Assembly (NCBI RefSeq): GCF_037038585.1
Contig: NC_092556.1
Coordinates: 450,619 to 514,618, forward strand
From: Patagioenas fasciata
Taxonomy: Eukaryota
Reading direction: 5' to 3'
DNA length: 64,000 nt
Shown here piece after piece: positions 1,715 to 43,619 of the stretch. The stretch's first letter is position 1. Every line of letters begins with the position of its first letter. The translations under genes and the position numbers were made by a program. A model generated the notes under the pieces. The model was not told the origin of the DNA and searched no databases. It was given only the letters and a program-made list of their open reading frames with translations.

Positions 1715-1812
1715 CGCTGTTCTGTACCAGTCTATACTGGTTTGTACTGGTCCATACTGGTCTATAGTGGTCTATACCGGTCCATACTGGTCTGTACTGG
1801 TCTATACTGGAC
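1715..1812. repeat. (ACTGGTCTAT)n 10-bp microsatellite immediately downstream of the MFAP4-like exon donor (intronic)
   Basis: ccagtctatactggtttgtactggtccatactggtctatagtgg... Confidence 0.85.
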
Positions 1813-1816
1813 TCAC

Positions 1817-1913
1817 CCAGCCAGTATTCGCCGTCCGCGCGTCCAAACCCCTGTTTGTAGTCGTTCCAGCCCCGGAAAAAACTGACGGAGCCGTTAAATC
1901 GCTTCTGAAAAAC
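1817..1913 (-). CDS. MFAP4: MFAP4-like (fibrinogen-related domain) exon encoding [33 protein letters not shown]
   Basis: Near-identical to human MFAP4 [35 protein letters not shown]. Minus-strand acceptor ttcag|GTTTTT and donor CTGG|gtgagt. It is part of the listed ORF 1071..2078 on the minus strand. Confidence 0.85.
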
Positions 1914-1924
1914 CTGAATTATGG

Positions 1925-3950
1925 GAGGGGGTTGGGGGGCACCCGGACGCCTGGGTCCCTCCCGGACGCCTGGGTCCCTCCCGAACTCCTGGGTGCCCCC
2001 CCAATCTCCTGCATCCCCCCCTATATCACACGGACCCCTTAGGCAGACCAGGTCTACCCAGGACCCTCCCAGGGCCACCAGGTCTACCCCGACCTTTCTC
2101 CCCCGAACTCCTGGGTCCCCCCCGAACTCCTGGGTTCCCCCCCGAACTCCTGGGTCCCTCGGGGCACTCCCGGGTCCCTCCCGAACTCCTGGGTCCCTTG
2201 GGGCACTCCTGGGTCCCTCCCGAACTCCTGGGTCCCCCCTATATCACACGGACCCCTTAGGCAGACCAGGTCTACCCAGGACCCTCCCAGGGCCACCAGG
2301 TCTACCCTGCTCTTTCTCCCCCGCACTCCTGGGTCCCCCCCGAACTCCTGGGTCCCCCCGGGTCCGTGGGGCACTCCGGGGTCCCTGGGGCACTCCCGGG
2401 TCCCTTGGGGCACTCCTGGGTCCCTCCCGTACCCCTACATCCCCCCTGTATCAGCTGGACCCCTTAGGCAGACCAGGTCTACCCAGGACCCTCCCAGGGC
2501 CACCAGGTCTACCCTGCTCTTTCTCCCCCGCACTCCTGGGTTCCCCCCCGCACTCCTGGGTTCCCCCGCCCCCCCGGGTCCCTTGGGGCACTCCTGGGTC
2601 CCTCCCGTACCCCTACATCCCCCCTATATCACACGGACCCCTTAGGCAGACCAGGTCTACCCAGGACCCTCCCAGGGCCACCAGGTCTACCCCGACCTTT
2701 CTCCCCCAAACTCCTGGGTTCCTCCCCGAACTCCTGGGTACCCCCCCGAACTCCTGGGTCCCCCCCCGCACTCCTGGGTCCCTCTCGAACTCCTGGATCC
2801 CTTGGGGCACTCCTGGGTCCCTTGGGGCACTCCTGGCTCCCTCCCCGAACTCCTGGTTCCCCCCATATTATATGGACCCCTTAGGCAGACCAGGTCTACC
2901 CAGGACCCTCCTAGGGCCACCAGGTCTACCCTGCTGTTTCTCCCCCGCACTCCTGGGTCCCCCCCGAACTCCTGGGTCTCCTCGGGTCCGTGGGGCACTC
3001 CGGGGTCCGTGGGGCACTCCTGGGTCCCTTGGGGCACTCCTGGGTCCCTCCCGTACCCCTACATCCCCCCTATATCACACGGACCCCTTAGGCAGACCAG
3101 GTCTACCCAGGACCCTCCCAGGGCCACCAGGTCTACCCTGCTCTTACTCCCCTGCACTCCTGGGTCCCCCCCGAACTCCTGGGTCCCCCCCGGGTCCGTG
3201 GGTCCCTCCGGGGTCCGTGGGTCCCTCCGGGGTCCGTGGGGCACTCCGGGGTCCCTTGGGGCACTCCCGGGTCTGTGGGGCACTCCTGGGTCCCCCCATA
3301 TTATATGGACCCCTTAGGCAGACCAGGTCTACCCAGGACCCTCCCAGGGCCACCAGGTCTACCCTGCTCTTTCTCCCCCGAACTCCTGGGTCCCTCCCCG
3401 CACTCCTGGGTCCCCCCCGCACTCCTGGGTCCCCCCGGGTCCGTGGGGCACTCCGGGGTCCGTGGGGCACTCCTGGGTCCCTTGGGGCACTCCGGGGTCC
3501 CTCCCCGAACTCCTGAGTCCCCCCATATTATATGGACCCCTTAGGCAGACCAGGTCTACCCAGGACCCTCCCAGGGCCACCAGGTCTACCCCGACCTTTC
3601 TCCCCCGAACTCTTGGGTCCCTCCCCGCACTCCTGGGTCCCCCCCGCCCCCCCGGGTCCCTGGGGCACTCCCGGGTCCCTCCTGAACTCCTGGGTCCCCC
3701 CTCGCACTCCTGGGTCCTCCTCAAACTCCTGGGTCCCACTCCTGGGTCTCCCCCAACCTCCTACATCCCCCCTATATCACACGGACCCCTTAGGCAGACC
3801 AGGTCTACCCAGGACCCTCCCAGGGCCACCAGGTCTACCCTGCTGTTTCTCCCCCGCACTCCTGGGTCCCCCCCGCACTCCTGGGTCCCCCCGGGTCCGT
3901 GGGTCCCTCCGGGGTCCGTGGGGCACTCCGGGGTCCCTTGGGGCACTCCG
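1925..3950. repeat. ~225-bp tandem repeat, about 9 units, containing CCCGGACGCCTGGGTCCC and ccctatatcacacggaccccttaggcagaccaggtctaccc
   Basis: The unit signature recurs at 2010, 2235, 2440, 2615, 2870, 3065, 3300, 3530 and 3770. It lies in the MFAP4-like intron. Confidence 0.85.
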
Positions 3951-3961
3951 GGGTCCCGTAC

Positions 3962-4105
3962 CGTCCAGACGTGGCCCAGCGTGCTCATGTCGCAGAAGAC
4001 GGGCAGGGGGGGCGCCCCGCTGCCCCCCGGGTACACCAGGTAGACGCCGTCCTCGCGCTCCCCCCCCGCGTGGATGTCGTGGCAGTCGCGGGGGGGCGGG
4101 GGCAC
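3962..4105 (-). CDS. MFAP4: MFAP4-like exon encoding VPPPPRDCHDIHAGGEREDGVYLVYPGGSGAPPLPVFCDMSTLGHVWT
   Basis: Matches human MFAP4 LDCDDIYAQGYQSDGVYLIYPSGPSVPVPVFCDMTTEGGKWT. Acceptor cgag|GTGCCC and donor ACG|gtacgg. It splices in phase 0 to the exon at 1817-1913 (WT|VFQKRF). Confidence 0.8.
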
Positions 4106-4139
4106 CTCGCAGGGGGGAGGGGCTGGCACAGCCACGGGG

Positions 4140-4900
4140 GGGTCATTGGGGGGGCCCCAGTGTCCCCGTGTCCCCATTGACCCCATTGACCCCATTGTTC
4201 CATTGCCCCCAGTGTCCCCATTGACCCCATTGTCCCCATTGACCCCATTATCCCATTAATTATCCCCATTGTTCCCATTGCCCCCATTGTCCCCATTGAT
4301 CCCCATTGTCCCATTCCCCCATTGTCCCCATTGTCCCAGTATCCCCATTATCCCATTAATTATCCCCATTGTCCCCATTCTCCCCATTGTCCCATTGCCC
4401 CCATTGTCCCCATTGCCCCCATTGCCCCCATTGCCCCCTATGTCCCCATTGTCCCAATGTCCCCATTGCCCCCAATGTCCCCATTGTCCCAATGTCCCCA
4501 TTGCCCCCATTGTCCCCATTGCGCCATTGTCCCCATTGCCCCCAATGTCCCCATTGCCCCATTATCCCCATTGCCCCCAATGTCCCCATTGTCCCAATGT
4601 CCCCATTGTCCCCATTGCCCCCAATGTCCCCATTGTCCCCATTGCCCCCAATGTCCCCATTGCCCCATTGTCCCCATTGCCCCCAATGCCCCCATTGTCC
4701 CCATTGCCCCCAATGTCCCCAATGTCCCCATTGCCCCATTGTCCCCATTGCCCCATTGTCCCCATTGCCCCCAATGTCCCCATTGTCCCAATGTCCCCAT
4801 TGTCCCCATTGCCCCCTTGTCCCCATGGTCTGTCCCCTCGTCCCCTGTCCGTCCCGTGTCCGTGGGTCCCACCTCGGGGGCTGATGGGTTGTCCCCCCCC
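4140..4900. repeat. (CCCCATTGTCC)n ~11-bp minisatellite
   Basis: Direct reading. It generates the listed spurious ORFs such as 4269..5249. Confidence 0.9.
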
Positions 4901-4929: not shown

Positions 4930-6440
4930 GCAGCACCTGCAATGGGGGCGTGTGGGGACCTATAGGATCCATAGGGGGTCCCTATAGAATCCATGGGGTG
5001 CTCTGGGGATCCCTGTTGGATCCACGGGGGGGTCTGGGGGTCCCTATAGGATCCATAGGGGGTCCCTATAGAATCCATGGGGTGCTCTGGGGATCCCTGT
5101 TGGATCCACAGGGGGGTCTGGGGGTCCCTATAGGATCCATAGGGGTTCCCTATAGAATCCATGGGGTGCTCTGGGGATCCCTATTGGATCCGCAGGGGGC
5201 TCTGGGGGGGTCCTATAGGATCCATAGGGGGTCCCCATATGATCCATAGGGGGCTCTGGGGGTCCCTATAGGATCTACAGGGGGGTCGAGTGGTCCCTAT
5301 AGGATCCATAGGAGGTCCCTATAAGATCCATAGTGGGGTCTTGGGGTCCCTATAGGATCCATAGGAGGTCCCTATAGGATCCATAGTGGGGTCTGGGGGT
5401 CCCTGTAGGATCTATGGGGGCTCTGGGGATCCATATAAGATCCATAGGGAGTCCCTATAGGATCCATAGTGGGGCCTGGGCGTCCCCATAGGATCCATAG
5501 GGGGGTCCCTATAGGATCTATGGGGGGCGGAATTTGATCCGTATAGGATCCATAGGGGGTCCCTATAGGATCCATAGGGGTGTCTGGGGGGGTCCCTATA
5601 AGGTCCATAGGGGATCAGTTTGATCCCTATAAGATCCATGGGGGAGTCTGGGGGTCCCTATAGAATCTATAGGGGAGTCTGGGGATCCCTATAGGACCCA
5701 TGGTGAGGGGGGTTGATCCCTATAGGATCCATAGGGGGTCCCTATAGGATCCATACGTCTATCTGGGGGTCCCTATTGGATCCATAGGGGGGTTTGGGGG
5801 TCCCTATAAGATCCATAGGGGATCCCTATAAGATGCATAAGGGGTTGGGGGCTCCCTATAGGATCTATAAGGGGTCCCTATAGGGCCCATAGGGGGTCAG
5901 GGGGTCCCTATTGAGTCCATAGGGGGGCTGGGGGTCCCTATAAGATCCATAGTGGGTCCCTATAGAATCCATAGGGTGCTCTGGGGGGCCCTATAGGATC
6001 CATAGGGGGTCCCTATAAGACCCATAGGGGTGCAGTTTGATCCCTATCGGATCCATAGGGGGGTGTGGGGGTCCCCATAGGATCCATAGGGGGTCTGGGG
6101 ATCCCTATAGGATCCATGGGCGGTCCCTATAGGATCCATAGGGGGTCCTTATAGGACCCACAGGGGTGCAGTTTGATCCCTATCGGATCCATAGGGGGGT
6201 CTGGGGGTCCCTATTGGACCCATAGGGGGTGTGGGGGTCCCTATAAGACCCATAGTGGGTCCCTATAGAATCCATGGGGTGCTCTGGGGGTCCCTATAGG
6301 ATCCATAGGGGGTCCCTATAAGACCCACAGGGGTGCAGTTTGATCCCTATCGGATCCATAGGGGGGCTGGGGGTCCCCATAGGATCCATAGGGGGGCTGG
6401 GGGTCCCCATAGGATCCATAGGGTGCCCGTAGGCCCCCGG
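4930..6440. repeat. ~22-bp minisatellite GGATCCATAGGGGGTCCCTATA
   Basis: Direct reading. Confidence 0.9.
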
Positions 6441-6649
6441 CTGTCCGTCCGTCCCGCCCGTTACCTCCGTCCGTCCGTCCATGGCGCCTCAGCCGCTTCC
6501 CCCCCCCCCAATCGGGGCCCCTCCCCGGACGCCTGGGTCCATTCCCGGACGCCTGGGTCCCTTCCCGGACGCCTGGGTCCCTTCCCGGACGCCTGGGTCC
6601 CCCAGCCCAGGGAGGCCCCTATGGGGGAAACGGCCCCGAATGGGCCATT

Positions 6650-7250
6650 TTAAGGCGGATTTGGGGCTTCTATAGGGGAAAAACGACTTTAAATCCGCTT
6701 TTCTATAGGGGAAACGCCCTTAATGGGGGGGTTATGCCACATTATCCCTATTTCTATACATTTTATAGCGAAAAACCCCCTAAAATCGCTATTTATCAGT
6801 CAAAAACCCCCTAATTGTGCCGCTTTATAACACCCACACCTTTAAATCCCCTTAATCTATAGGCAACGCGCCCTTAAACGCGTTTACATTCAACCTATAT
6901 ACATTAAACCTTAAGTGTGGCTGCTCTAGGGGGGAAACGCCCTAAATCTGCCCCCAAATGCGAAATAGCGCCCTAAATCCCGCCCTATTCACACAATGTA
7001 TACATTAATTAGGTGTTTTTGCGCTTTTTTATGTGCTATATACGTTTAAACTTCTGTTTCTATAAGGGAAACGCCCTTGAGTTGGTCCCTGAAGGGGCTG
7101 TGGGCAAAACTTGGTTCCCTATAGCGAAAATACCCTTAAATTGGCCCGGCTATAGGTCCAGGGCGTAGCTCCCCCCCTTATATGTGTGGTTTTATACATA
7201 AATAGTTTAATACTTACGTAATATTTTATATATATAGAGAAGTTTAGGCG
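6650..7250. promoter_or_regulatory. AT-richer unique island with ~8 dispersed copies of a 21-bp motif CTATAGGGGAAACGCCCTTAA, ending in a TATATATATAGAG tract
   Basis: Motif copies near 6670, 6705, 6755, 6850, 6925, 6965, 7060 and 7120, spaced 40-100 bp apart. This is the only AT-rich stretch in the window, and it lies directly upstream of the CpG promoter. Confidence 0.35.
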
Positions 7251-7259
7251 CCCCCCCAC

Positions 7260-7660
7260 TCCGGCCTCCTCACAAGATGGCGGCGCCGCGCGGGGCACGC
7301 TGGGAGTTGTAGTCCCGCCCCCTTAATCAGCCAATGCGCCTCAAGCACCGGGGGGACTACAACTCCCAGCGTGCACCGCGCCGGGTGGCGGCGGCCGCTG
7401 CTACAAGATGGCGGGCGGTGCGCGGTGTACGCTGGGAGTTGTAGTCCGCGTTGCCATTAAAAGCAATGGGGGTGGGCGGGGCTTGGGGACTACACCTCCC
7501 GGCGTGCCCCGCGCGTGGAGCGGGGACTTCCGGCGCTCGGCTGGACCGGAAGAGAAGGCGGGGGCGCGCGCGTGGCGTCGCCGTCTCGGCGTCTCCGCGG
7601 GTCCGGTTTGGGTTTTGCGTCGTTTTTTTTGGCTTTAAAAGCGCGAAAAAGGAGCAAAAA
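7260..7660 (+). promoter_or_regulatory. CpG-island promoter, possibly bidirectional, with two YY1 sites, four ZNF143/THAP11 SBS-like sites, CCAAT, two opposed ETS/GABP sites and a TTTAAAAG TATA-like element
   Basis: YY1 AAGATGGCGGC at 7274-7284 and 7405-7415. SBS-like ACTACAACTCCCAGCG in alternating orientation at 7300-7316, 7355-7372, 7432-7448 and 7488-7505. CCAAT at 7331-7335. ACTTCCGG at 7526-7533. CCGGAAG at 7545-7551. TTTAAAAG at 7635-7642. Confidence 0.6.
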
Positions 7661-7698
7661 AAGGGTGAAAAAGCCTCAAATCGGCGGCAGAGGAGCCG
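7560..7698 (+). other. SRRM2: Candidate non-coding first exon, putatively SRRM2 exon 1, ending at donor GGAGCCG|gtgagg
   Basis: A strong donor (gtgaggacc) sits about 40 nt downstream of the TATA-like element. The SRRM2 ATG exon has an upstream acceptor (ccccccgcag|GGCAGG at 13281), which implies an upstream 5'UTR exon. Confidence 0.4.
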
Positions 7699-7699
7699 G

Positions 7700-8320
7700 T
7701 GAGGACCCGGGGGGGGGGTTTGGGGGGTTTTTGGGGGGTTTTGGGGCCGTTGGTGGCGGTTGGGGGGGGGGGGGAAGATGGCGGTGTGAGGGAAAAAGGG
7801 TTAAAAAATGGGGTTTTTTTGGGGAAAAATGGGGGGTTTGAGGGAAAAATGGGCGGTTTGTGAGGGAAAGTGGGGGTCTATGAGGAAAAGTGGGGGTTTT
7901 TGGGGGGGAAAATGGGGGTTTTGGGGGGGGAAATGGGGGTGGGGAAATGGCGCGGGAAAAGGGGCTTTTGGGGGGGAAAAAAGGGGGGGTTGGGGGCTTT
8001 GTGAGGGGGAAAGGGGGGGTTGGGGGGAAAAAGGGGGAAGTTTGGGGGGAAAAGTGGATTTTGAGGGGAAAAAGGGGGTTTTGGGGTTTGTGGGGGAAAA
8101 TGGGAGGAGAAAAGGGGATTTGGGGGGGAAAAGGGGGATTTGGGGGCGGTTTTGAGGAGCAAAATGAGGGGAAATGGGAGGGGTTTAGGTGGAAAATGAG
8201 GTTTTTTAGGCAGAAAAAATTGGTGTTTCTAAGGGCAAAAAGTGAGGTTTTAGGTAAAAAGTTTGGGGGTTTGGGCCACGAAAAATTCGAGGTTTTGGGG
8301 GCGAAAAAGTGAGATTTTGG
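7700..8320. repeat. G-rich minisatellite (GGGGGAAAAGGGGGTTTTG family)
   Basis: Direct reading. Confidence 0.85.
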
Positions 8321-11210
8321 GACCAAAAAAAAGAGAGATTTTTAAGGGAAAAAAGTGAGATTTTTAAGGAAAAAAGTGAAATTTTTTAAGGAAAAATGAA
8401 ATTTTGGGGCAAAAAAGTGAGATTTTTTTTAGGGAAGAAAGTGAGATTTTTGAGGAAAAAAGTGAGATTTTTGGGGCGAAAAAAGTGAGGATTTTTGGGC
8501 GAAAAAGTGGGGATTTTGGGGGCCGAAAAAGTGAGATTTTGAGGCCGAAAAGGTGAGATTTTTAAGGAAAAAAGTGAGGTTTTGGGGGCCGAATAAAGTG
8601 AGGTTTTTGGGGCAGAAAAAGTGAGGTTTTGGGGGTGAAAAAGTGAGATTTTTGGGGCCAAAAAGGTGAGATTTTTAAGGAAAAAAGTGAGGTTTTTGGG
8701 ACCGAAGAAGTGAGATTTTTGGGGCGAAAAAGTGAGGTTTTTTAGGTAAAAAATTTGAGGGTTTTGGGGCGAAAATTTTGAGGTTTTGGGGCGAAAAATT
8801 TGAGGTTTTTTGGGTGAGAAGTTTTGGGGCAAAAGATTGAGGTTTTGGGGCAAAAGAACTTGAGGATTTTGGGCAAGAAAATCAGAAGGTTTGGGGTAAA
8901 AACAGTGAGGATTTTGGGGCAAAACAGTGAGGATTTTGGGGCCAAAAAAGTGAGATTTTTGGGGGCGAAAAAGTGAGATTTTTGGGGCAAAAAGTGAGAT
9001 TTTTTGGGGCGAAAAAGTGAGGTTTTAGGTAAAAAATTTGAGGGTTTTTGGGCGAAAATGTTGAGGTTTTGGGAGAAAAGTTTTGAGTTTTTTTGGGGTG
9101 AAAAATTTGAGATTTTTGGGGTGCGAAATTTTGAGGTTTTTGGGGCAAAAAAATCGAGGTTTTTGGGGCAAAAAAGTGAGGTTTTAGGTAAAAAAATTTG
9201 AGGGTTTTTGGGCAAAAATTTTGAGGTTTGGGGAGAAAAATTTTGAGGTTTTTTTGGGGTGAAAGATTGGAGGTTTTTGGGGGCCAAAAAAGTGAGGTTT
9301 TTGGGGGCCAAAAAAGTGAGGTTTTAGGTAAAAAATTTGAGGGTTTTTGGGCGAAAATGTTGAGGTTTAGGGTGAAAAATTTTGAGGTTTTTTGGGTGAA
9401 AGATTTGAGGTTTGGGGGTGAAAATTTTGAGTTTTTTGGGTGAGAAATTTTGAGGTTTTTGGGGCAAAAAGTGGAGGTTTTTGGGGCAAAAAAAATGGGA
9501 GGTTTTTAGTTAAAAAATGATGGTTTTGGGGAAAAAAAGAGGAAGAGATTTTTGGGGCAAAATTTGGAGGTTTTGGGGCAAAAAAAAATGGAGGTTGGGG
9601 GGCAAAATTTGGAGGTTTTTGGCCCAAAAGAGATTTGAGGGTTTTTGGGCAAAAAGATTGAGATTTTGGGGCAAAAATAGAGAGGTTTTGAGGTTAGAAA
9701 ATGAGATTTTTAGGCAAAAAAGTGAGGTTTTAGGTAAAAAATGGATGGGTTTGGGGCAAAAAAGGGGGTTTGGGTAAAAAAAATGGAGGTTTTTGGGAAA
9801 AAAGTGATTTTTTTGTTAAAAAAAGCGACTTTTAGGCAGAAAAAGTGGGATTTTTAAGGCAAAAGAAATGGAGATTTTGGGGTGGAAAAGGGAGATTTGG
9901 GGGCACAGAACTTGAGATTTTGAGGTGAAAAAAGTTGAGGGTTTTTTTAAGCCAAATTGAGGGGATTTTGGGTGAAAAAATGCGGGTTTTAGGTAAAAAA
10001 GGAGAGGTTTTGGGGTGAAAAACTTGAGGTTTTGGGGTGATAAAAATTGAGGGTTTTGGGCAAGAATGGGGACATTTTTAGGTTAGAAAATGGGGGTTTT
10101 GGGCAAAAAAAAATCGATGTTTTTAGGCAAAGAAATTGAGATTTTTAGGGCCAAAAAGTTAAGAAAGTTGAGGTTTTTGGGGTGAAAAATGTTGAGATTT
10201 TTGGGGTGAAAAATGTTGAGATTTTTGGGGTGAAAAATGTTGAGATTTTTGGGTGAAAAAAGTGAGATTTTGGGGCAAAAGAAGCTGAGATTTTTTTAGG
10301 CAAAACCCCTTGATTTTAAGCAAAAGAAATTGAAATTTTTTGGGGGAAAAAAATGAGGTTTTTAGGCAAAAATGTTGGGATTTTGGGGCAAAAGCGTTTG
10401 AGATTTTTAGGTGAAAATGTTGAGATTTGGGGGCGAAAATAAAGGGATTTTTAGGTTAGAAAATGAGGTTTTTAGGCAAAAGGGTTTGATGTTTTAAGGC
10501 AAAAAAAGAGATTTTTAGGTTAAAAATTGAAGGGGTTTGGGCGAAAAAATGAGGTTTTGGGGCAAAAAAAATGAGGTTTTTGGGTTAAAAAGGAGATTTT
10601 TAGGCAAAAAAAGTGAGATTTTGGGGCAAAAAACCCAGATTTGGGGTAAAATAATTTGAGGGGTTTTAGGTGAAAAAAGTGAGATTTTGGGTGAAAGGAA
10701 TTGAGGGTTTTTTAGGCCAAAAAATGAGGGGTTTTAGGTAAAAAATGTGAGGTTTTGGGGCCAAAAAAAATGAGGTTTTTGGGTGAAAAAATTGGGGGTT
10801 TTGGGTGAAAAAAAAAAGGGGTTTTGGGGCCAAAAAATTTGAGGTTTTGGGGCAAAAAGGAAGGAATTTTTGGGTTAGAAAATGGGGGTTTTAGGCAAAA
10901 AAAACCCTGATATTTTTAGGTGAAGAAATGGAGATTTTGGGGCAAAAAACGGAGTTTTTGGCCCCCAAAGTTTGATATTTTTAGGCAAAAAAAGTTGATG
11001 TTTTGGGGTGAAAAAAGTTGAGGGTTTTGGGCCAAAAAATGAGGTTTTTGGGCAAATTATTTGAGGTTTTGGGGGCCGAAAAATTGGGATTTTTTAGGTT
11101 AAAAAAGTGGGATTTTGGGGGCAAAGAAAACTGGAGAGTTTTGGGGCAAGAAAGTGAGGGATTTAGGGCAAAAAATGAGATTTTTTGGGGGCAAAAAAGT
11201 GAGGTTTTTG
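8320..11210. repeat. ~20-25-bp satellite GAAAAAGTGAGATTTTTGGGGC and variants
   Basis: Direct reading. It lies in the putative SRRM2 intron 1. Confidence 0.9.
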
Positions 11211-11219
11211 GGTAAAAAA

Positions 11220-13200
11220 AGGGGGTATGGGAGAAATTGGGGTTCAGGGAGGAACCAAGGGGTGAAATGGGGGGGATTTGGGGGTTCAGGGAGGAACCAA
11301 GGGGTGAAATGGGGGGGATTGGGGGTTCAGGGAGGAACCAAGGGGTGAAATGGGGGGGATTGGGGGTTCAGGGAGGAACCAAGGGGTGAAATGGGGGGGA
11401 TTTGGGGGTTCAGGGAGGAACCAAGGGGCGAAATGGGGGGGATTTGGGGGTTCAGGGAGGAACCAAGGGGTGAAATGGGGGGGATTGGGGGTTCAGGGAG
11501 GAACCAAGGGGTGAAATGGGGGGGATTGGGGGTTCAGGGAGGAACCAAGGGGCGAAATGGGGGGGATTTGGGGGTTCAGGGAGGAACCAAGGGGTGAAAT
11601 GGGGGGGATTGGGGGTTCAGGGAGGAACCAAGGGGTGAAATGGGGGGGATTTGGGGTTCAGGGAGGAACCAAGGGGTGAAATGGGGGGGATTTGGGGGTT
11701 CAGGGAGGAACCAAGGGGTGAAATGGGGGGGATTGGGGGTTCAGGGAGGAACCAAGGGGTGAAATGGGGGGGATTTGGGGGTTCAGGGAGGAACCAAGGG
11801 GTGAAATGGGGGGGATTGGGGGTTCAGGGAGGAACCAAGGGGTGAAATGGGGGGGATTGGGGGGTTCAGGGAGGAACCAAGGGGTGAAATGGGGGGATTG
11901 GGGGGTTCAGGGAGGAACCAAGGGGTGAAATGGGGGGATTGGGGGGTTCAGGGAGGAACCAAGGGGTGAAATGGGGGGGATTGGGGGTTCAGGGAGGAAC
12001 CAAGGGGTGAAATGGGGGGATTGGGAGGTTCAGGGAGGAACCAAGGGGTGAAATGGGGGGGATTTGGGGGTTCAGGGAGGAACCAAGGGGTGAAATGGGG
12101 GGGATTGGGGGTTCAGGGAGGAACCAAGGGGTGAAATGGGGGGATTGGGGGGTTCAGGGAGGAACCAAGGGGTGAAATGGGGGGGATTTGGGGGTTCAGG
12201 GAGGAACCAAGGGGTGAAATGGGGGGGATTTGGGGGTTCAGGGAGGAACCAAGGGGTGAAATGGGGGGGATTTGGGGGTTCAGGGAGGAACCAAGGGGTG
12301 AAATGGGGGGGATTGGGGGTTCAGGGAGGAACCAAGGGGTGAAATGGGGGGGATTGGGGGTTCAGGGAGGAACCAAGGGGTGAAATGGGGGGGATTTGGG
12401 GGTTCAGGGAGGAACCAAGGGGTGAAATGGGGGGGATTTGGGGGTTCAGGGAGGAACCAAGGGGTGAAATGGGGGGGATTGGGGGTTCAGGGAGGAACCA
12501 AGGGGTGAAATGGGGGGATTGGGGGGTTCAGGGAGGAACCAAGGGGTGAAATGGGGGGGATTTGGGGGTTCAGGGAGGAACCAAGGGGTGAAATGGGGGG
12601 GATTGGGGGTTCAGGGAGGAACCAAGGGGTGAAATGGGGGGGATTTGGGGGTTCAGGGAGGAACCAAGGGGTGAAATGGGGGGGATTGGGGGTTCAGGGA
12701 GGAACCAAGGGGCGAAATGGGGGGGATTGGGGGTTCAGGGAGGAACCAAGAGGTAAATGGGGGTGATTTGGGGGTTCAGGGAGGAACCAAGGGGTGAAAT
12801 GGGGGGTTGGATGGGGGGGTTTTGGGGGTTCAGGGAGGAACCAAGGGATGAATGGGGTGTTCCAGGGGGGTGGGTAAAGGGGGTTTTGGGGATTCAGGGA
12901 GGAACCACGGGGCGAGCGGGGGGTTGATGGATTTGGGGGTTCACTAAGGGGGTTTGGGGGTTCAGGGAGGAACCAAGGGGTGAAATGGGGGGGGTTGGTG
13001 GATTTGGGGGTTCACTAAGGGGGTTTGGGGGTTCAGGGAGGAACCAAGGGGCGAAATGGGGGGTTCCAGGGGTTTGGATAAAGGGGGCTTTGGGGGTTCA
13101 GGGAGGAACCATGGGGTGAAATGGGGGTGGGCTGTGGGGGTTCAGGGAGGAACCAAGGGCTGAAATGGGGGCTTCAGGGAGGAACCACGGGCCGAGCGGG
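11220..13200. repeat. 41-bp satellite GGGGTTCAGGGAGGAACCAAGGGGTGAAATGGGGGGGATT, about 45 units
   Basis: Direct reading. It is highly homogeneous. Confidence 0.95.
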
Positions 13201-13281
13201 GGGGTTGATGGATTTGGGGGTTCACTGCGGGGGTCTCGGGGTGCAGGGGGGGCGGGGGGTGGCTGACGCGTCCCCCCGCAG

Positions 13282-13581
13282 GGCAGGGGGTTTTCGGGGC
13301 GCCATGTACAATGGGATCGGGCTGGCGACGCCGCGGGGCAGCGGCACCAACGGCTACGTGCAGCGCAACCTGTCGGCCCTGCGGGGCAAACGGGAGCCCA
13401 GGACGGCCCAGAACGGGGGAGACCCCCCCCCCGGCCCCCCCGGCCCCGATCGGGACGACCCCCCCACCCTGGAAACCGGGGGGCTGCTCCGCAAACCCAA
13501 CCCCGACATCCTCGACCACCAGCGCAAGAGGAAGGTGGAGCTGAAATGCCTGGAGCTGGCCGAGCTCATGGAGGAGCAGGG
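13282..13581 (+). CDS. SRRM2: SRRM2 first coding exon (ATG at 13304): [34 protein letters not shown]...PNPDILDHQRKRKVELKCLELAELMEEQG
   Basis: Strong match to the human SRRM2 N-terminus [24 protein letters not shown]...KRPNPDILDHERKRRVELRCLELEEMMEEQG. Acceptor ccccccgcag| at 13281. Donor GG|gtgagt, phase 2. Confidence 0.9.
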
Positions 13582-13599
13582 GTGAGTGGCTCAAAGTGG

Positions 13600-14760
13600 C
13601 CCGAAACCGCACGAAATTAGCCCAAAACCGACCCGAAATGGGCCCGGACCGCCTTAAAATGCTCCCACATGGCCCCAGAATGGGCCCAGACGGCCTTAAA
13701 ATGAGCCCAGACCACCTTAAAATGCTCCCACGTGGCCCCAAGATGGGCCCAGACCACCTTAAAATGCTCCCAGATGACCCCAGAATGTGCCCAAATGACC
13801 CCAAAATGGGCCCAGAGGGCCTTAAAATGAGCCCAGACCACCTTAAAATGCTCCCACATGGCCCCAAGATGGGCCCAGACCACCTTAAAATGGGCCCAAA
13901 TGACCCCAGAATGGGCCCAGACCGCCTTAAAATGCTCCCGCATGGCCCCAAAATGGGTGCAAATGACCCCAAAATGGGCCCAGATGGCCTTAAAATGCTC
14001 CCATATGTGCCCAGACCACCTTAAAATGCTCCCACGTGGCCCCAAAATGGGCGCAAATGACCCTAAAATGGGCCCAGACCACCTTAAAATGCTCCCACAT
14101 GGCCCCAAAATGGGCCCAGACCACCTTAAAATGCTCCCAGATTAACCCAGAATGTGCCCAAATGACCCCAAAATGGGCCCAGATGGCCCCAAATTCCCCC
14201 CAACACCCCAAAACTCCACTTGGATCCTCCCAACTTCTCCTTCATCCCCATCTCCCGCACCCCCAAACTTCCCTTTTTCCCCCAAAAACCCCCTCTAGAC
14301 CCCCCAAGCACCCCCAAAACCCCTTCTAGACCCCCCAAAACCCCCTCTAGACCCCCCATGCACCCCCAAAACCCCCTCTAGACCCCCCATGCACCCCCAA
14401 AACCCCCTCTAGACCCCCCATGCACCCCCAAAACCCCCTCTAGACCCCCCCAGCACCCCCAAAACCCCCTCTAGACCCCCCCATGCACCCCCAAAACCCC
14501 CTCTAGACCCCCCCCATGCACCCCCAAAACCCCCTCTAGACCCCCCATGCACCCCCAAAACCCCCTCTAGACCCCCCCATGCACCCCCAAAACCCCCTCT
14601 AGACCCCCCCCATGCACCCCCAAAACCCCCTCTAGACCCCCCATGCACCCCCAAAACCCCCTCTAGACCCCCCCATGCACCCCCAAAACCCCCTCTAGAC
14701 CCCCCATGCACCCCCAAAACCCCCTCTAGACCCCCCAAGCACCCCCAACACCCCAAAAAT
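13600..14760. repeat. Two minisatellites in SRRM2 intron: a ~40-bp CCTTAAAATGCTCCCACATGGCCCCAAGATGGGCCCAGAC unit, then a ~30-bp CCCCAAAACCCCCTCTAGACCCCCCATGCA unit
   Basis: Direct reading. Confidence 0.9.
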
Positions 14761-15006
14761 CCCCCCAAAATCCCCCCGAATTCCCCCTCAACTCCACTTG
14801 GACCCTCCCAACTTCTCCTGCATCCCTGACTCCCGTACCCCCAAAACTCCCCTTTTTGCCCCCAAAACTCCCCTTTTTCCCCCCAAAACCCCCTTTTTCC
14901 TCCCCAACTCTCCCCCTTTTACCCCCCAACCCCCCTCCAATCCCCCCCCCAGCCCCCCAAAACCCCCCTTAGCCCCCCAAAAACCCCCTTCTCCCCCCAT
15001 TTCCAG

Positions 15007-15105
15007 GTACACGGAGAGCGAAATCCAGGACAAAGTCTCCACCTTCCGCACGATGCTCTTGGAACGCGACGTGGCCCTGGGGGACCCCGCCGACCCCAAA
15101 CCCGC
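15007..15105 (+). CDS. SRRM2: SRRM2 exon: (G)YTESEIQDKVSTFRTMLLERDVALGDPADPKP
   Basis: Matches human QGYEEQQIQEKVATFRLMLLEKDV. Acceptor ttccag|. Donor GC|gtgagt. The phase continues from the previous exon. Confidence 0.9.
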
Positions 15106-15190
15106 GTGAGTGCCCCCAAAACCCCCCCGAGACCCCCCAAAACCCCCCCTAATTAACCCCCCCCCCCTTAACGAGCTCCCCCCTCGTTAG

Positions 15191-15346
15191 CGTGACGGAA
15201 ACTCATCAGCTGGCCGAAGCTAACGAGAAGAAGAACGAGCGGCTGCGGGCGGCCTTCGGGATCAGCGACAGCTACGTGGACGGGAGCTCCTTCGACCCCG
15301 CGCGCCGCGCCAAAGAGACCCCCCCGGAGCCCCCCGAGCCCCCCAG
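15191..15346 (+). CDS. SRRM2: SRRM2 exon: AVTETHQLAEANEKKNERLRAAFGISDSYVDGSSFDPARRAKETPPEPPEPP
   Basis: Matches human PAVTETHQLAELNEKKNERLRAAFGISDSYVDGSSFDPQRRA. Acceptor cgttag|. Donor CCCCAG|gtaccg. Confidence 0.9.
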
Positions 15347-15439
15347 GTACCGACCCGGGGGTCCCCAAAACCCCCCGGTGCCCCCCAAAAACACCCCGGG
15401 CCCCCCAAGTTTTCCTGAGCCCCCCAAGTCCCCCTAAGT

Positions 15440-33521: not shown

Positions 33522-33631
33522 TCAGGGGAGGGGCGGCTCCTGCGCCGCCCCCGCCGAGTCCTGGGGTTTCATGACGTCCGGCAGCTCGGGGGGGCTGGAG
33601 AAGGGGTCGATGCGCAGCCCCTCGAACGCCT
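33522..33631 (-). CDS. ELOB: ELOB terminal coding exon: (E)[35 protein letters not shown]
   Basis: Matches human elongin B [35 protein letters not shown]. Acceptor ccccccag|AGGCG. Stop TGA at 33524-33522. Confidence 0.85.
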
Positions 33632-33639
33632 CTGGGGGG

Positions 33640-35560
33640 CGACCGCGGTCAGGGGGGGGCCCCAGACCCACAGAGACCCCCATAGAGCCCCCCCAGACCC
33701 ACAGAGACCCCACAGAGCCCATAGAACCCCCCAGACCCACAGAGACCCCATAGAGCCCCCCCAGACCCACAGAGACCCCATAGAGCCCCCCCAGACCCAC
33801 AGGGACCCCGTAGAGCCCCCCCAGACCCACAGGGACACCATAGAATCCCCCCAGACCCACATGGACCCCCATGGGACCCCATAGAACCCCCCAGACCCAC
33901 ATGGGACCCTCAGACCCACATGGGACCCACAGAGACCCCACAGAAACCCCCAGACCCACAGAGACCCCATAGACCCACACAGACCCACATGGGACCCATA
34001 GAACCCCCCAGACCCACATGGACCCCATAGACCCCCCAATGAGGCCCCAGACCCACACAGACCCCCAGACCCCAAAACAACCAATGGGGACCCCAAAATG
34101 GGGCAGCCCCACATCCATGGGGCAGCCCCACTGCGACCCCCAAAATCCCACCTGGGGACCCCAAACACCCCCCCCCCGGGCACCCCAGAGCGTCCCCCAT
34201 GTCCCACTATGGGTCAGACCCACATCCATGGGGCAGACCCACTGCGACCCCCAACCCCCCTCCTGGGGACCCCAAGCCCCCCCCCAGGGCACCCCAGAGC
34301 GTCCCCCGTGCCCCACTATGGGTCAGCCCCACATCCATGGGTCAGCCCCACCTCTATGGGGCAGCCCCACTGCGACCCCCAAAATCCCCCCTGGGGACCC
34401 CAAACCTCCCCAGGGCACCCCAGAGCGTCCCCCGTGCCCCACTATGGGTCAGCCCCACATCTATGGGGCAGCCCCACTGCGACCCCCAACCCCCCTCCTG
34501 GGGACCCCAAGCCCCCCCCCAGGGCACCCCGGAGCGTCCCCCATGCCCCGCTATGGGTCAGCCCCACATCTATGGGTCAGCCCCACATCCATGGGTCAGC
34601 CCTACTGCGACCCCCAAAATCCCCCCTGGGGACCCCAATTTCCCCCCCCGGGCACCCCAGCGCGTCCCCCGTGCCCCGCTCTGGGGCGGCCCCAGACGTG
34701 TGGGGCGGACCCACCGCTGCCCCTCAGCGCCAGCCCCACGGTGGCGGGCGCCTGGGGCCGCGCGGTCTGGCTGGTGAAGCCGCAGTCCCCCAGGGTCTTG
34801 GAGTCATCCAGGAGTTGGTCATCCTGGGGGGCAGAGCCACGGAGAGCCAGGAGTGAGCGGCAGGGACCCACAGAGACCCATAGAGACCCATAGGGACCCA
34901 TAGAGACCCATAGAGACCATAGGGACCCATAGAGACCCATAGGGACCCATAGGGACCCATAGAGACCCATAGAGACCCATAGGGACCCATAGAGACCACA
35001 GAGACCCATAGGGACCCATAGGGACCCATAGAGACCCATAGAGACCCATAGGGACCCATAGAGACCACAGAGACCCATAGGGACCCATAGAGACCCATAG
35101 GAACCCATAGGGACCCATAGGGACCCATGGAGACCCATAGAGACCCATAGAGACCATAGGGACCCATAGGGACCGATAGAGACCCATAGGGACCATAGAG
35201 ACCCATAGAGACCCATAGAGACCATAGAGACCCATAGGGACCCATAGAGACCCATAGAGACCCATAGAGACCCATAGGGACCCACAGAGACCCACGGAAA
35301 TACACAGAGACCCATAGAGACCCATAGGGACCCATAGAGACCTCAGAGCCCCATAGGGACCCACAGAGACCCATAGAGACCCATAGAGACCCATAGGGAC
35401 CCAGAGAGACCCACAGAGCCCCATAGGGACCCATAGGGACCCATGGAGACCCATAGAGACCCATAGAGACCCATAGAGACCCATAGAGACCCATAGAGAC
35501 CATAGGGACCATAGGGACCCATAGAGACCCATAGGGACCATAGAGACCCTATGGGTCTCT
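33640..35560. repeat. GACCCATAGAGACCCATAGG 10/11-bp minisatellite filling ELOB introns, interrupted by the exon island at 34715-34823
   Basis: Direct reading. It generates the spurious ORFs 34602..35315, 34724..35512 and others. Confidence 0.9.
34715..34823 (-). CDS. ELOB: ELOB exon: [36 protein letters not shown]
   Basis: Matches human [35 protein letters not shown]. Acceptor ccccccag|GATGAC. Donor GCAGCG|gtgggt, phase 1. Confidence 0.85.
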
Positions 35561-35738
35561 ATGGTCCCTATGGGTCCCTATGGTCTCTATGGTTTCTCTG
35601 ATGATCTCTGTGGTGCTCTCTATGGTCTCTATGGTGAACTCTATGGTCCCTATGTTGCTCTCTATGGTCCCTATGTTGCTCTATCTGAACTCTATGGTGT
35701 GTATGACGCTATAGGTGCCGTATGGATGCCATGGGTAC

Positions 35739-35873
35739 CTTGTAGAGGCGCTGGTCCTGGGGGGGCCGGTGCAGGATCCCCTCCACCACGCGCTTGAGCT
35801 CCAGCACGGTGCTGGACTCCTTGGCATCGGTGAAGATGGTGGTCTTGTGCCGCCGGATCATCAGGAACACGTC
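35739..35873 (-). CDS. ELOB: ELOB exon: [45 protein letters not shown]
   Basis: Matches human [45 protein letters not shown]. Acceptor cccccag|GACGTG. Donor TACAAG|gtaccc. Confidence 0.9.
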
Positions 35874-37214: not shown

Positions 37215-37560
37215 TGGCGGCCGCTGCTCGTTCCGGGTCCGGGCGATCCCAGCGGCCCCCGCGGCCGCCGCAGCCAATGGGGAGCGAGGCCACGCCCCCT
37301 GGCGGCGCCGCCATCTTGGGGAGGGCGGGTGGGAGCGGGGGGCGAAGGTGCCGGGCGCCATGTTGAAAGGGTCGAATTCCCGCCCTTTTTCCGGGCGCCA
37401 TGTTGAAAGGGTCGAATTCCCGCCCTTTTCGGGCGCCATCCTGGGAAGGTCTGATTTCCCGCCCTTTTCCCGGGCACCATTTTGAGAGGGTTCAAAGCCC
37501 CCCCCCCCACTCACTTCCGGGCGCCATTTTGAGCCGTTCAGCCATCTTGAGAAGGTCAAA
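37215..37560 (-). promoter_or_regulatory. ELOB: ELOB TATA-less promoter with a YY1 site (CAAGATGGCGGCGCC on the minus strand, 37303-37317), an inverted CCAAT (37271-37280) and GC/GT boxes; upstream it has four degenerate ~45-bp tandem units each carrying GCGCCATnTTG and TTCCCGCC (E2F-like)
   Basis: Direct reading of 37261-37320, and of the tandem units ccgggcgccatgttgaaagggtcgaattcccgccctttt at 37330-37540. Confidence 0.55.
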
Positions 37561-43325: not shown

Positions 43326-43333
43326 CCCCACAG

Positions 43334-43605
43334 GGACCGCGACCCCCGCTCGTACTCGGTGCTGCTGGGCGCCCCGGAGCTGTCGGGCCCGCCGGGGGTG
43401 GGCGTGGCCATCCCGCTGGGGCGGGTCCTGCCCCACCCCTCGTACGCGGGCGAGGCCACCAGCGGGGACATCGCGCTGGCCCAGCTGGCCCGGCCCGTCC
43501 CCCTCTCGGCCGCGGTGCTGCCCGTCTGCCTGCCCGGGCCGCGCCTCCGCTTCCCGCCCGGCACCCCCTGCGTGGCCACCGGCTGGGGGGACATCGCCGA
43601 GGGAG
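43334..43605 (+). CDS. Serine protease exon 4: DRDPRSYSVLLGAPELSGPPGVGVAIPLGRVLPHPSYAGEATSGDIALAQLARPVPLSAAVLPVCLPGPRLRFPPGTPCVATGWGDIAEG, containing the catalytic Asp (DIAL)
   Basis: Matches the testisin region RYLGNSPYDIALVKLSAPV...CWVTGWGYIKEDE. Acceptor cccacag|GGACC. Donor GGGAG|gtcagg. Confidence 0.85.
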
Positions 43606-43619
43606 GTCAGGGGGACACG

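What the first reader, a model, noticed from the sequence alone, without database searches (positions are those of the whole stretch)
7260..13581. SRRM2 promoter candidate 5.6 kb upstream, with four ZNF143-type motifs, and an intron 1 made entirely of satellite
Positions 7260-7660 form a textbook CpG promoter. It has two YY1 sites (AAGATGGCGG), four SBS/ZNF143-THAP11 motifs (ACTACAACTCCCAGCG) arranged as two inverted pairs, CCAAT, two opposed GABP/ETS sites and a TTTAAAAG box. A clean donor follows at 7698. The SRRM2 ATG exon has an upstream acceptor at 13281. The 5.6 kb between them consists of three homogeneous satellites (8320-11210, 11220-13200, 7700-8320). If these are linked, intron 1 is pure satellite.
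Basis: partly seen in the sequence, partly recalled or inferred. Interest (0 to 1): 0.5.

Follow-up and report, generated by a model that had tools for sequence, protein, structure and literature searches.

The report
SRRM2 promoter with satellite-filled first intron
This is the ordinary housekeeping promoter and untranslated first exon of a pigeon-family SRRM2 gene, separated from the start-codon exon by a 5.6-kb intron made almost wholly of tandem repeats, which is a recently described habit of genes on very small bird chromosomes rather than a new kind of element.

Summary
The window comes from a columbid (pigeon/dove).

- **Motifs.** Positions 7262-7552 hold four full-length ACTACA+SBS (ZNF143/THAP11) motifs, two YY1 sites and an opposed ETS pair. 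The SBS motif occurs nowhere else in the 64 kb.
- **Conservation.** These blocks are 90-100% invariant across three columbids, while the spacers are 41-69% invariant. The CCAAT and TTTAAAAG boxes are not conserved.
- **Splice sites.** The donor (7698|7699) is invariant in the three columbids. The acceptor (13281|13282, 22 nt before the ATG at 13304) has a counterpart in all five sauropsid sequences aligned.
- **Transcript evidence.** A spliced cDNA contig from another bird joins the homologue of 7552-7698 directly to the homologue of 13282 onward.
- **Intron 1.** It is 95% tandem arrays, G 42% and C 6%. However, 83% of the whole window is tandem repeat, so the intron is not exceptional here.
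- **Orthologous introns.** In Columba, Caloenas and Colius they are also G-rich arrays, with different lengths (2.9-6.9 kb). Only Columba shares the window's repeat units.

The intron matches the "sequence stuttering" described for chicken dot chromosomes in 2026. The promoter grammar matches the known HCFC1/ZNF143/THAP11/YY1/GABP class. No RNA data exist for this species. Interest is low.

The parts
7272..7284 (+). YY1 site a (AAGATGGCGG at 7274-7283)
   Evidence: All 13 columns are invariant in three columbids.
7289..7313 (-). Full ACTACA+SBS motif 1 (ZNF143/THAP11 type)
   Evidence: It matches 20 of 27 positions of the SBS2 consensus quoted in PMC7154149. The block is 100% invariant in columbids.
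7356..7380 (+). Full ACTACA+SBS motif 2
   Evidence: It matches 21 of 27 positions of the SBS2 consensus. The block is 91% invariant.
7403..7415 (+). YY1 site b (AAGATGGCGG at 7405-7414)
   Evidence: 100% invariant in columbids.
7421..7445 (-). Full ACTACA+SBS motif 3
   Evidence: 95% invariant.
7489..7513 (+). Full ACTACA+SBS motif 4 (slightly degenerate)
   Evidence: 90% invariant.
7262..7530 (.). About 131-bp tandem duplication (unit A 7262-7394, unit B 7393-7530). Each unit is YY1 + SBS(-) + spacer + SBS(+), so the whole forms a nested palindrome.
   Evidence: Alignment A1. As single-stranded DNA it folds with z = -10.9. The same two-unit layout is present in Colius.
7527..7552 (.). Opposed ETS/GABP-type pair (CTTCCGG at 7527-7533, CCGGAAG at 7546-7552)
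   Evidence: 90% invariant in columbids. The cDNA homology begins at 7552.
7552..7698 (+). Non-coding exon 1 of SRRM2. The 5' end is a minimum; the true start site is probably about 7520-7555.
   Evidence: L007 5'UTR nt 1-28 match 7552-7582, the best hit in the window (E 0.002), and nt 98-117 match 7681-7699. There is no ATG in the 169-nt spliced UTR. TRF coverage is 0%.
7699..13281 (+). Intron 1, 5,583 bp, 95% tandem arrays, G 42% and C 6%
   Evidence: The donor GTGAGGACCC is invariant in three columbids.
7775..7784 (+). Third YY1-type site, 77 nt into intron 1
   Evidence: It is conserved as AAAATGGCGG in Columba and Caloenas.
7711..8146 (+). Degenerate ~20-bp G-rich arrays
   Evidence: TRF, 67-84% matches.
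8279..11221 (+). ~22/23-bp array (CGAAAAAGTGAGATTTTTGGGG), about 130 units
   Evidence: TRF, 65-72% matches. A related 22-mer array occurs in C. livia intron 1. The core is found only here in the window.
11239..13248 (+). 41-bp array (GGGGTTCAGGGAGGAACCAAGGGGTGAAATGGGGGGGATTG). It has 38 copies at 96% identity with 83/124-bp higher-order periods, decaying to 71-bp variants after 12757.
   Evidence: The related core in C. livia occurs as 43/72-bp units.
13263..13281 (+). Branch-point-like CTGAC, C-tract and AG acceptor
   Evidence: All five sauropsid sequences carry a C-rich tract and an AG acceptor (inferred position) just before the ATG exon; GCTGACG precedes it in the three columbids and L004 but not in L003.
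13282..13581 (+). Exon 2: 22 nt of 5'UTR, the ATG at 13304, and the cwf21-domain N-terminus
   Evidence: 88% identical to Caloenas SRRM2.
13582..15006 (+). Intron 2, with C-rich tandem arrays (skew -0.60)
15007..15106 (+). Exon 3 (YTESEIQDKVSTFRTMLLERDVALG...)

Best explanation
Positions about 7262-7552 are the CpG-island core promoter of the SRRM2 gene of a columbid bird. It belongs to the known housekeeping class that carries ZNF143/THAP11 (ACTACA+SBS), YY1 and GABP/ETS motifs. Here the module is a two-unit tandem duplication, which gives four SBS motifs as two inverted pairs.

Transcription starts near the ETS pair, at about 7520-7555, and produces a non-coding exon 1 that ends at 7698. The 5,583-nt intron 1 (7699-13281) is removed, joining exon 1 to exon 2 at 13282, 22 nt before the ATG at 13304.

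The intron is filled with locally expanded, G-rich imperfect tandem arrays. This is the 'sequence stuttering' described for introns of avian dot-chromosome genes. The arrays turn over between species while the splice sites and promoter blocks stay fixed.

Shown here: the motifs, their conservation, the splice-site conservation, the exon 1-exon 2 junction in a related bird's cDNA, and the repeat structure with its turnover. Inferred: factor occupancy, the exact start site, and use of this junction in this particular species.
For: - Motif counts are far above chance.
- All four SBS are full 25-nt motifs. They resemble the SBS2 consensus quoted in PMC7154149.
- The ZNF143/THAP11 + YY1 + GABP combination is the signature of HCFC1-bound CpG-island promoters (PMC3668359).
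- Phylogenetic footprint across three columbids: motif blocks and the donor are 89-100% invariant, against 41-69% for spacers.
- The same cluster lies upstream of SRRM2 in Columba, Caloenas and, in degraded form, Colius.
- SBS motifs lie upstream of the ATG exon in a mammal, a cobra and another amniote.
- All five sauropsid sequences keep a C-rich tract and an AG acceptor (inferred position) a few tens of nt before the ATG; the GCTGACG branch-like motif is shared by the three columbids and L004.
- The cDNA contig L007 is spliced across seven window exons, and its 5'UTR joins the exon 1 homologue to the exon 2 homologue.
- L007's post-junction bases equal the first exon 2 bases of Colius genomic DNA.
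- The promoter/exon 1 and exon 2 are the only repeat-free islands nearby: 0% TRF, against 95% in the intron.
- The spliced UTR has no upstream ATG.
- Synteny is as expected: an MFAP4-like gene upstream on the minus strand, as in Caloenas and Colius, and ELOB downstream on the minus strand.
- Nothing promoter-like lies upstream of 13282. The 41-bp array runs to within 33 nt of the acceptor.
Against: - There is no RNA, CAGE or ChIP evidence from this species.
- The UTR homology between L007 and the window is short and individually weak: E 0.002 and 0.28 in the window, 4e-5 and 0.006 in C. livia. The L007 species is unidentified.
- ETS sites are not enriched over chance in the window.
- Two mammalian cDNA contigs retained intron 1, so they gave no junction. 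The non-coding status of mammalian exon 1 therefore rests on my reading of L001 and on memory of the human RefSeq model.
- Public annotations of Caloenas and Columba begin at or after the ATG and do not show exon 1.
- The array lengths could be partly mis-assembled.
Confidence: 0.87

Rival explanations
1. The cluster is primarily, or additionally, the promoter of the divergent minus-strand neighbour (an MFAP4-like, fibrinogen-C-domain gene) or of an upstream antisense transcript. In that case the inverted SBS pairs would serve bidirectional transcription.
For: - Two of the four SBS point to the minus strand.
- ZNF143 has been reported to have inherently bidirectional activity (Anno et al. 2011, as summarised in PMC7154149).
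- The annotated 5' end of the fibrinogen-C gene in Caloenas lies 1.3 kb from the cluster. That corresponds to about window 6470, roughly 0.8 kb away.
Against: - MFAP4-like genes are tissue-restricted matrix genes, not typical HCFC1-class targets (established knowledge).
- The stretch between about 6470 and 7260 is AT-rich or repeat sequence, not CpG island.
- No transcript evidence exists for a minus-strand start here.
- A minus-strand role would not remove the SRRM2 role, which the cDNA junction supports.
Confidence: 0.12
2. The inverted SBS pairs are hairpin (miRNA-like) RNA genes rather than transcription-factor sites.
For: - There are sub-threshold Rfam matches on both strands to mir-5408, mir-3160, mir-1990 and mir-1805 across 7284-7508.
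- The region folds very stably (z = -10.9).
Against: - All scores are far below the gathering thresholds, for example 42 against 90 bits.
- The matches hit both strands equally, as any palindrome would.
- The region lies upstream of the cDNA 5' end.
- The mir-5408 consensus itself contains ACTACAACTCCCA. This suggests that family was built on an SBS palindrome rather than the reverse.
Confidence: 0.02
3. The 5.6-kb size and the homogeneous 41-bp array are partly an assembly artefact, and the true intron is shorter or different.
For: - Orthologous introns are 3,650 bp in C. livia and 2,919 bp in Caloenas.
- The Caloenas locus contains a 200-N gap, although not inside intron 1.
- Highly identical arrays are error-prone to assemble.
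Against: - Colius has a 6.9-kb intron 1 of the same character.
- Hron et al. verified such introns with raw nanopore reads and found real length polymorphism among chickens (PMC12954441).
- The array has orderly 41/83/124-bp periodicity and degenerate flanks.
Confidence: 0.1

Closest known systems
HCFC1-bound CpG-island promoters with ZNF143/THAP11, YY1 and GABP motifs (Michaud et al. 2013, PMC3668359; SBS2 motif of Ngondo-Mbongo et al. 2013 as quoted in PMC7154149)
   Same: It shares a CpG island, the 20-25-nt ACTACA+SBS motif, a YY1 AAGATGGCGG box, ETS/GABP CCGGAAG close to the start site, and a housekeeping target gene.
   Different: The module here is tandemly duplicated, giving four complete SBS as two inverted pairs (a nested palindrome). 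Factor binding has not been measured in any bird at this locus.
Mammalian (human-type) SRRM2 5' region (locus L001)
   Same: SBS motifs (ACTACAACTCCC, ACTACACTTCCC) and a YY1-like box lie upstream of an inferred non-coding exon 1. The acceptor lies about 30 nt before the ATG exon.
   Different: The mammalian SBS are all in the sense orientation. Intron 1 is 3.2 kb of ordinary sequence (G 29%, C 21%) with essentially no G4 motifs: one or two matches, against 49-60 in the window.
'Sequence stuttering' of introns on chicken dot chromosomes (Hron et al., Genome Biol Evol 2026, PMC12954441)
   Same: The arrays are locally expanded, imperfect tandem arrays of tens of bases, confined to single introns. 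Exons are left intact, and length and unit sequence differ between related species. TRF coverage reaches about 93-95%.
   Different: This is a columbid SRRM2, which that paper's main text does not mention. No exon-derived copies occur in this window, though Colius has one. The G-rich sense-strand polarity of intron 1 is shared by five sauropsid sequences. I found no mention of this in the parts of the paper that I searched and read.
Satellite-filled gigantic introns of Drosophila Y-linked genes (Fingerhut and Yamashita 2022; seen only as a reference in PMC12954441, not read here)
   Same: Both are transcribed introns composed mostly of satellite DNA.
   Different: Those introns are megabase-scale, made of simple satellites, and testis-specific. 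This one is 5.6 kb of minisatellite in a ubiquitously needed splicing-factor gene.

Membership tests
HCFC1-class CpG-island promoter (ZNF143/THAP11 + YY1 + GABP) | CpG island at the start site | tested here: met
   Positions 7260-7700 have GC 0.66 and CpG observed/expected 1.16.
HCFC1-class CpG-island promoter (ZNF143/THAP11 + YY1 + GABP) | ZNF143 SBS with the ACTACA submotif that recruits THAP11/HCFC1 | tested here: met
   There are four 25-nt matches and none elsewhere in the 64 kb (0.18 expected). They match 18-21 of 27 positions of the published SBS2.
HCFC1-class CpG-island promoter (ZNF143/THAP11 + YY1 + GABP) | YY1 and GABP motifs near the start site | tested here: met
   YY1 occurs twice, plus once in the intron. 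The ETS pair is at 7527 and 7546. ETS is not enriched by count but is 90% invariant in columbids.
HCFC1-class CpG-island promoter (ZNF143/THAP11 + YY1 + GABP) | Occupancy by ZNF143, THAP11, HCFC1, YY1 and GABP in cells | not testable with these tools
   This needs ChIP or CUT&RUN in columbid cells.
SRRM2 5' gene structure (non-coding exon 1 spliced to the ATG exon) | Downstream exon encodes the SRRM2 cwf21 N-terminus, in conserved synteny | tested here: met
   (88% to Caloenas SRRM2). ELOB lies downstream. A fibrinogen-C/MFAP4-like gene lies upstream, as in Caloenas and Colius.
SRRM2 5' gene structure (non-coding exon 1 spliced to the ATG exon) | Conserved acceptor just upstream of the ATG and conserved donor after exon 1 | tested here: met
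   All five sauropsid sequences have a C-rich tract and an AG acceptor just before the ATG. The donor is invariant in three columbids.
SRRM2 5' gene structure (non-coding exon 1 spliced to the ATG exon) | Exon 1-exon 2 junction observed in RNA | tested here: inconclusive
   The junction is seen in the cDNA-like contig L007 of another, unidentified bird. No RNA is available from the window's species.
Avian intronic 'sequence stuttering' (PMC12954441) | Intron dominated by local imperfect tandem arrays that stop at the exons | tested here: met
   TRF covers 95% of intron 1 and 0% of exons 1 and 2. The array cores occur only inside intron 1.
Avian intronic 'sequence stuttering' (PMC12954441) | Orthologous introns of related species differ in length and repeat unit | tested here: met
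   Lengths are 5,583, 3,650, 2,919 and 6,945 bp. Units are shared only with C. livia.
Avian intronic 'sequence stuttering' (PMC12954441) | Gene lies on a dot microchromosome | tested here: inconclusive
   The window's chromosome is unknown. The Caloenas orthologue lies on a 774,814-bp chromosome-level record, and 83% of the window is tandem repeat. Both fit a dot chromosome.
Avian intronic 'sequence stuttering' (PMC12954441) | Copies of adjacent exon sequence inside the intron (the exon-stuttering subtype only) | tested here: not met
   No exon 1, exon 2 or promoter hit in introns 1 or 2 exceeded the dinucleotide-shuffle maxima. The case is therefore purely intronic stuttering.
Avian intronic 'sequence stuttering' (PMC12954441) | Intron length polymorphism within the species | not testable with these tools
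   This needs long reads from several individuals.
Rfam miRNA precursor families (mir-5408, mir-3160, mir-1990, mir-1805) | Score at or above the family's gathering threshold | tested here: not met
   The best score is 42.2 bits against a threshold of 90, and matches occur on both strands.

The most novel reading that the evidence does not exclude
The strong G-rich sense-strand polarity of SRRM2 intron 1 may not be an accident of stuttering. The skew is +0.61 to +0.83, with 5-16 G-quadruplex motifs per kb. It is kept in the window species, Columba, Caloenas, Colius and one more amniote, even though the repeat units are replaced.

The polarity could instead be tied to the promoter. A promoter-proximal R-loop/G4 zone downstream of a duplicated, palindromic ZNF143/THAP11-YY1 module might either seed the expansions or be selected to keep the island open. 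If so, this locus would offer a tractable link between promoter-proximal non-B DNA and the unexplained stuttering instability of bird dot chromosomes.
Probability: 0.1. Interest if true: 0.5.

Novelty: new member of a known kind. Interest (0 to 1): 0.2.

Why it matters
The main value is for annotation.

- **Missing 5' end.** The public gene records fetched here for Caloenas and Columba SRRM2 begin at or after the ATG. The Columba N-terminus is in the wrong frame. The true 5' exon and promoter therefore do not appear in the records fetched. This analysis places them.
- **Another example of stuttering.** The locus adds a documented non-chicken example of intronic sequence stuttering. The orthologous intron was compared in four birds, with fixed splice sites and promoter blocks around rapidly changing arrays.
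- **Age of the duplication.** The duplicated YY1-SBS-SBS promoter module predates the pigeon-mousebird split.

None of this changes current understanding of promoters or of satellites.

Tried and rejected
- **Exon stuttering test.** I ran BLASTN of exon 1, exon 2 and the promoter against introns 1 and 2, with 20 dinucleotide shuffles as control. No hit exceeded the shuffle maxima, so the arrays are not exon-derived.
- **Mammalian cDNA contigs.** L008 and L009 were fetched to show the exon 1-exon 2 junction in mammals. Both retain intron 1 and were uninformative.
- **Budgerigar model.** The N-terminal extension of the Melopsittacus model (P0122) was compared with the in-frame translation of the window's spliced UTR. 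There was no alignment, so it was dropped as evidence.
- **RNA genes.** Rfam and ARAGORN scans of 6000-14000 looked for snRNA, tRNA-Sec or other Staf-driven RNA genes. There were no tRNAs and only sub-threshold palindrome hits.
- **Pangshura tecta locus.** No DNA was returned because the gene range was too long.
- **First protein search.** Using exon 2 alone, the search found no close relative; the best hit was 68% identical. Only the spliced three-exon query revealed the columbid origin.
- **CCAAT and TTTAAAAG as functional boxes.** Rejected for lack of conservation. TTTAAAAG is also rejected for its position inside exon 1.
- **A rule that arrays are G-rich on the transcribed sense strand.** Rejected, because intron 2 is C-rich (skew -0.60) and the skew alternates along the gene.


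Full report
**What the window is.** The ORF at 13304-13581 encodes the cwf21-domain N-terminus of SRRM2. When exons 2-4 are joined (13304-13581, 15007-15106, 15191-15347), the peptide is 88% identical to Caloenas nicobarica SRRM2. It is 96% identical, over the aligned part, to a Columba livia protein. Promoter DNA is 87% identical to C. livia and 80% to Caloenas. The window is therefore a columbid other than those two.

The neighbours fit this picture:
- An MFAP4-like fibrinogen-C gene lies upstream on the minus strand, as in Caloenas and Colius.
- ELOB lies downstream on the minus strand.
- A trypsin-like protease exon lies beyond that.

Tandem repeats cover 83% of the whole 64 kb. The Caloenas orthologue sits on a 774,814-bp chromosome-level record. 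Both observations fit a dot microchromosome.

**Checking the observation: motifs.**
- The SBS 16-mer occurs four times, only at 7298-7504, against 0.18 expected. Each copy is in fact a complete 25-nt ACTACA+SBS ending in TRCNCCGCG. They match 18-21 of 27 positions of the SBS2 consensus quoted in PMC7154149.
- AAGATGGCGG occurs at 7274 and 7405.
- The opposed ETS pair is present, as are CCAAT and TTTAAAAG.
- The segment is CpG-island-like (GC 0.66, CpG observed/expected 1.16) and is free of tandem repeats.

**Checking the observation: splice sites and satellites.** The donor (exon end 7698) and the acceptor (exon start 13282) read as described. A CTGAC branch-like site lies 18 nt upstream of the acceptor AG, and the ATG is at 13304. 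The intervening 5,583 bp is 95% tandem array:
- ~20-bp G-rich units (7711-8146).
- A ~22/23-bp unit (8279-11221, 65-72% matches).
- A 41-bp unit (11239-12806, 38 copies, 96% matches, with 83/124-bp higher order), which decays toward the acceptor.

Only the 41-bp array deserves the word 'homogeneous'.

**Structure of the promoter.** Positions 7262-7530 are a tandem duplication of a ~131-bp unit: YY1, then SBS(-), then a spacer, then SBS(+). This explains the 'two inverted pairs'. The arrangement is a nested palindrome and folds with z = -10.9 as single-stranded DNA. It also attracts sub-threshold Rfam miRNA hits on both strands. I regard those hits as a by-product of the palindrome.

**Is it the SRRM2 promoter? 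Evidence from orthologous loci.** In C. livia (L006) and Caloenas (L005) the identical order YY1/SBS-/SBS+/YY1/SBS-/SBS+/ETS-/ETS+ lies 3.8 and 3.1 kb upstream of the SRRM2 ATG. In a three-species alignment:
- The motif blocks and the last 28 nt of exon 1 plus the donor are 89-100% invariant.
- The spacers, the CCAAT region and the TTTAAAAG region are only 41-69% invariant.

Colius striatus (a mousebird) has the same two-unit layout in degraded form, plus the conserved GCGTGGCGTCGC block and a GTGAGG donor, about 7 kb upstream of its ATG. The duplication therefore predates the pigeon-mousebird split.

Further out, SBS motifs lie upstream of the ATG exon in three more sequences. These are a mammalian contig (with a YY1-like box and an inferred donor), Naja naja, and an unidentified GC-rich amniote contig that also has a YY1 site and a G-rich repetitive 569-bp intron 1. 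All five sauropsid sequences aligned have a C-rich tract and an AG acceptor just before the ATG.

**Is it the SRRM2 promoter? Evidence from a transcript.** Logan contig L007 (SRR21676487; its protein P0123 is 73% identical) is a processed transcript. It maps collinearly onto seven separate coding exons of the window.

Its 139-nt 5'UTR behaves as the model predicts:
- Nt 1-28 hit window 7552-7582, the best hit in the whole window (E 0.002; E 4e-5 at the equivalent place in C. livia).
- Nt 98-117 hit 7681-7699, ending at the donor.
- The next bases, GGGTCGGCAGC...ATG, align to exon 2.
- Those bases are identical to the first bases after the AG acceptor in Colius genomic DNA.

So in a related bird the homologue of 7552-7698 is spliced to the homologue of 13282.

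The spliced UTR of the window has no upstream ATG. Nothing promoter-like precedes 13282, and the 41-bp array runs to within 33 nt of the acceptor.

**What the intron is.** The 22-mer and 41-mer cores occur only inside intron 1 of the window, all in one orientation.
- C. livia intron 1 (3,650 bp, 93% TRF) has a related 22-mer array and 43/72-bp units with the same GGTTCAGGGAGGAACC core.
- Caloenas (2,919 bp, 82% TRF) has different G-rich units.
- Colius (6,945 bp, 90% TRF) again has different units, plus a perfect 140-bp copy of the acceptor and start of exon 2.

No exon-derived copies exist in the window.

This matches the 'sequence stuttering' of Hron et al. (PMC12954441). That paper describes local imperfect tandem expansions confined to single introns of dot-chromosome genes. 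TRF coverage medians reach 93%, and lengths and units differ between related species. The Nicobar pigeon is named there among genomes with dot-like chromosomes.

Intron 1 is G-rich on the sense strand in every sauropsid sequence examined: skew +0.61 to +0.83 and 5-16 G4 motifs per kb, against +0.14 and essentially none (one or two matches) in the mammal. Intron 2 of the window is C-rich (-0.60), and the skew alternates along the gene. There is thus no general sense-strand rule.

**Mechanism and rivals.** The best reading (confidence 0.87) is a conventional HCFC1-class housekeeping promoter (PMC3668359). It drives a ~150-nt non-coding exon 1, followed by a stuttered intron that is simply spliced out.

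A bidirectional role toward the MFAP4-like neighbour remains possible. Its annotated 5' end corresponds to roughly window 6470, about 0.8 kb away. It has no transcript support. The miRNA reading fails the Rfam thresholds. Array length may be imperfectly assembled, but the character of the intron is reproduced in four species.

**Verdict.** The CCAAT and TTTAAAAG boxes are discounted, and 'intron of pure satellite' is placed in context as the norm for this chromosome type. It is a new member of known kinds, useful mainly for annotation, and of low interest.

Noticed in passing
window 7775-7784: A third YY1-type box (AAGATGGCGG) lies 77 nt inside intron 1. It is conserved as AAAATGGCGG at the same relative place in Columba (L006 6388) and Caloenas (L005 7159). 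It is one of the few non-repeat stretches of the intron.
   Followed up: partly
window 7284-7508: The four SBS form a nested palindrome (single-stranded DNA fold z = -10.9). It gives sub-threshold hits on both strands to the Rfam miRNA families mir-5408, mir-3160, mir-1990 and mir-1805. The mir-5408 consensus itself contains GgaCuacaaCuCCCa, so that family may have been built on an inverted SBS pair at a promoter.
   Followed up: partly
window 8279-11221: The 22-mer array carries many decoy RNA-processing signals on the sense strand. There are 34 GTGAG (27 as AAGTGAG), two consensus-grade AAGGTGAG donors (8550, 8663), 37 T-run+AG acceptor-like sites and two AATAAA hexamers (8592, 10438). How the spliceosome ignores them was not examined.
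   Followed up: no
window 1750-4195 (minus strand), putative 5' end near 6470: These are exons of an MFAP4-like fibrinogen-C-domain gene (best PDB match MFAP4, E 5e-34), head-to-head with SRRM2. The same neighbour is annotated in Caloenas and Colius. Its introns are also repeat-filled.
   Followed up: partly
window 33537-35873 (minus strand) and 37250-37560: Three coding exons of ELOB (elongin B) lie tail-to-tail with SRRM2. About 1.4 kb upstream of its ATG exon is a cluster of repeated GCCAT boxes (minus-strand YY1-type motifs, including AAGATGGCGG at 37308). A CCAAT box (37272) and an ETS site (37514) lie in the same cluster. This is a likely ELOB promoter with its own non-coding first exon.
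   Followed up: no
window 43300-43640 (plus strand): An ORF fragment resembles a trypsin-like serine protease exon (…PVCLPGP…GTPCVATGWG…), judged by eye only and not checked with a tool. I recall an SRRM2-ELOB-PRSS gene order in human 16p13.3, which was not verified here.
   Followed up: no
L010 (Colius striatus JARBXP010000049.1) 9157-9296 vs 9945-10084: A 140-bp, 100% identical copy of the SRRM2 intron 1 acceptor plus the first ~90 nt of exon 2 (including the ATG) sits 790 bp upstream of the real exon, followed by a 20-bp array. This is a clear case of exon stuttering in SRRM2 of another bird, and it creates a decoy start exon.
   Followed up: partly
L006 (Columba livia JAVLUT010000922.1) 10001 onward; protein P0125: The public C. 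livia protein model starts at an internal ATG in the wrong frame (MGSGWRRRG…, the same +1-frame ORF as window 13311-13544). It rejoins the SRRM2 frame later. This points to an indel in that assembly or a faulty model. Neither it nor the Caloenas model shows exon 1.
   Followed up: no
whole window: 83% of the 64 kb is tandem array by TRF. Arrays in successive SRRM2 introns alternate between G-rich and C-rich on the sense strand: for example +0.76 in intron 1, -0.60 in intron 2, +0.68 at 17-18 kb and -0.5 at 19-21 kb.
   Followed up: partly
L008 and L009 (mammalian Logan cDNA-like contigs): Both mammalian SRRM2 transcript contigs that were retrieved are spliced at downstream introns but retain the 3' part of intron 1 up to the acceptor. 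This may reflect frequent intron 1 retention, slow removal, or an assembly bias.
   Followed up: no
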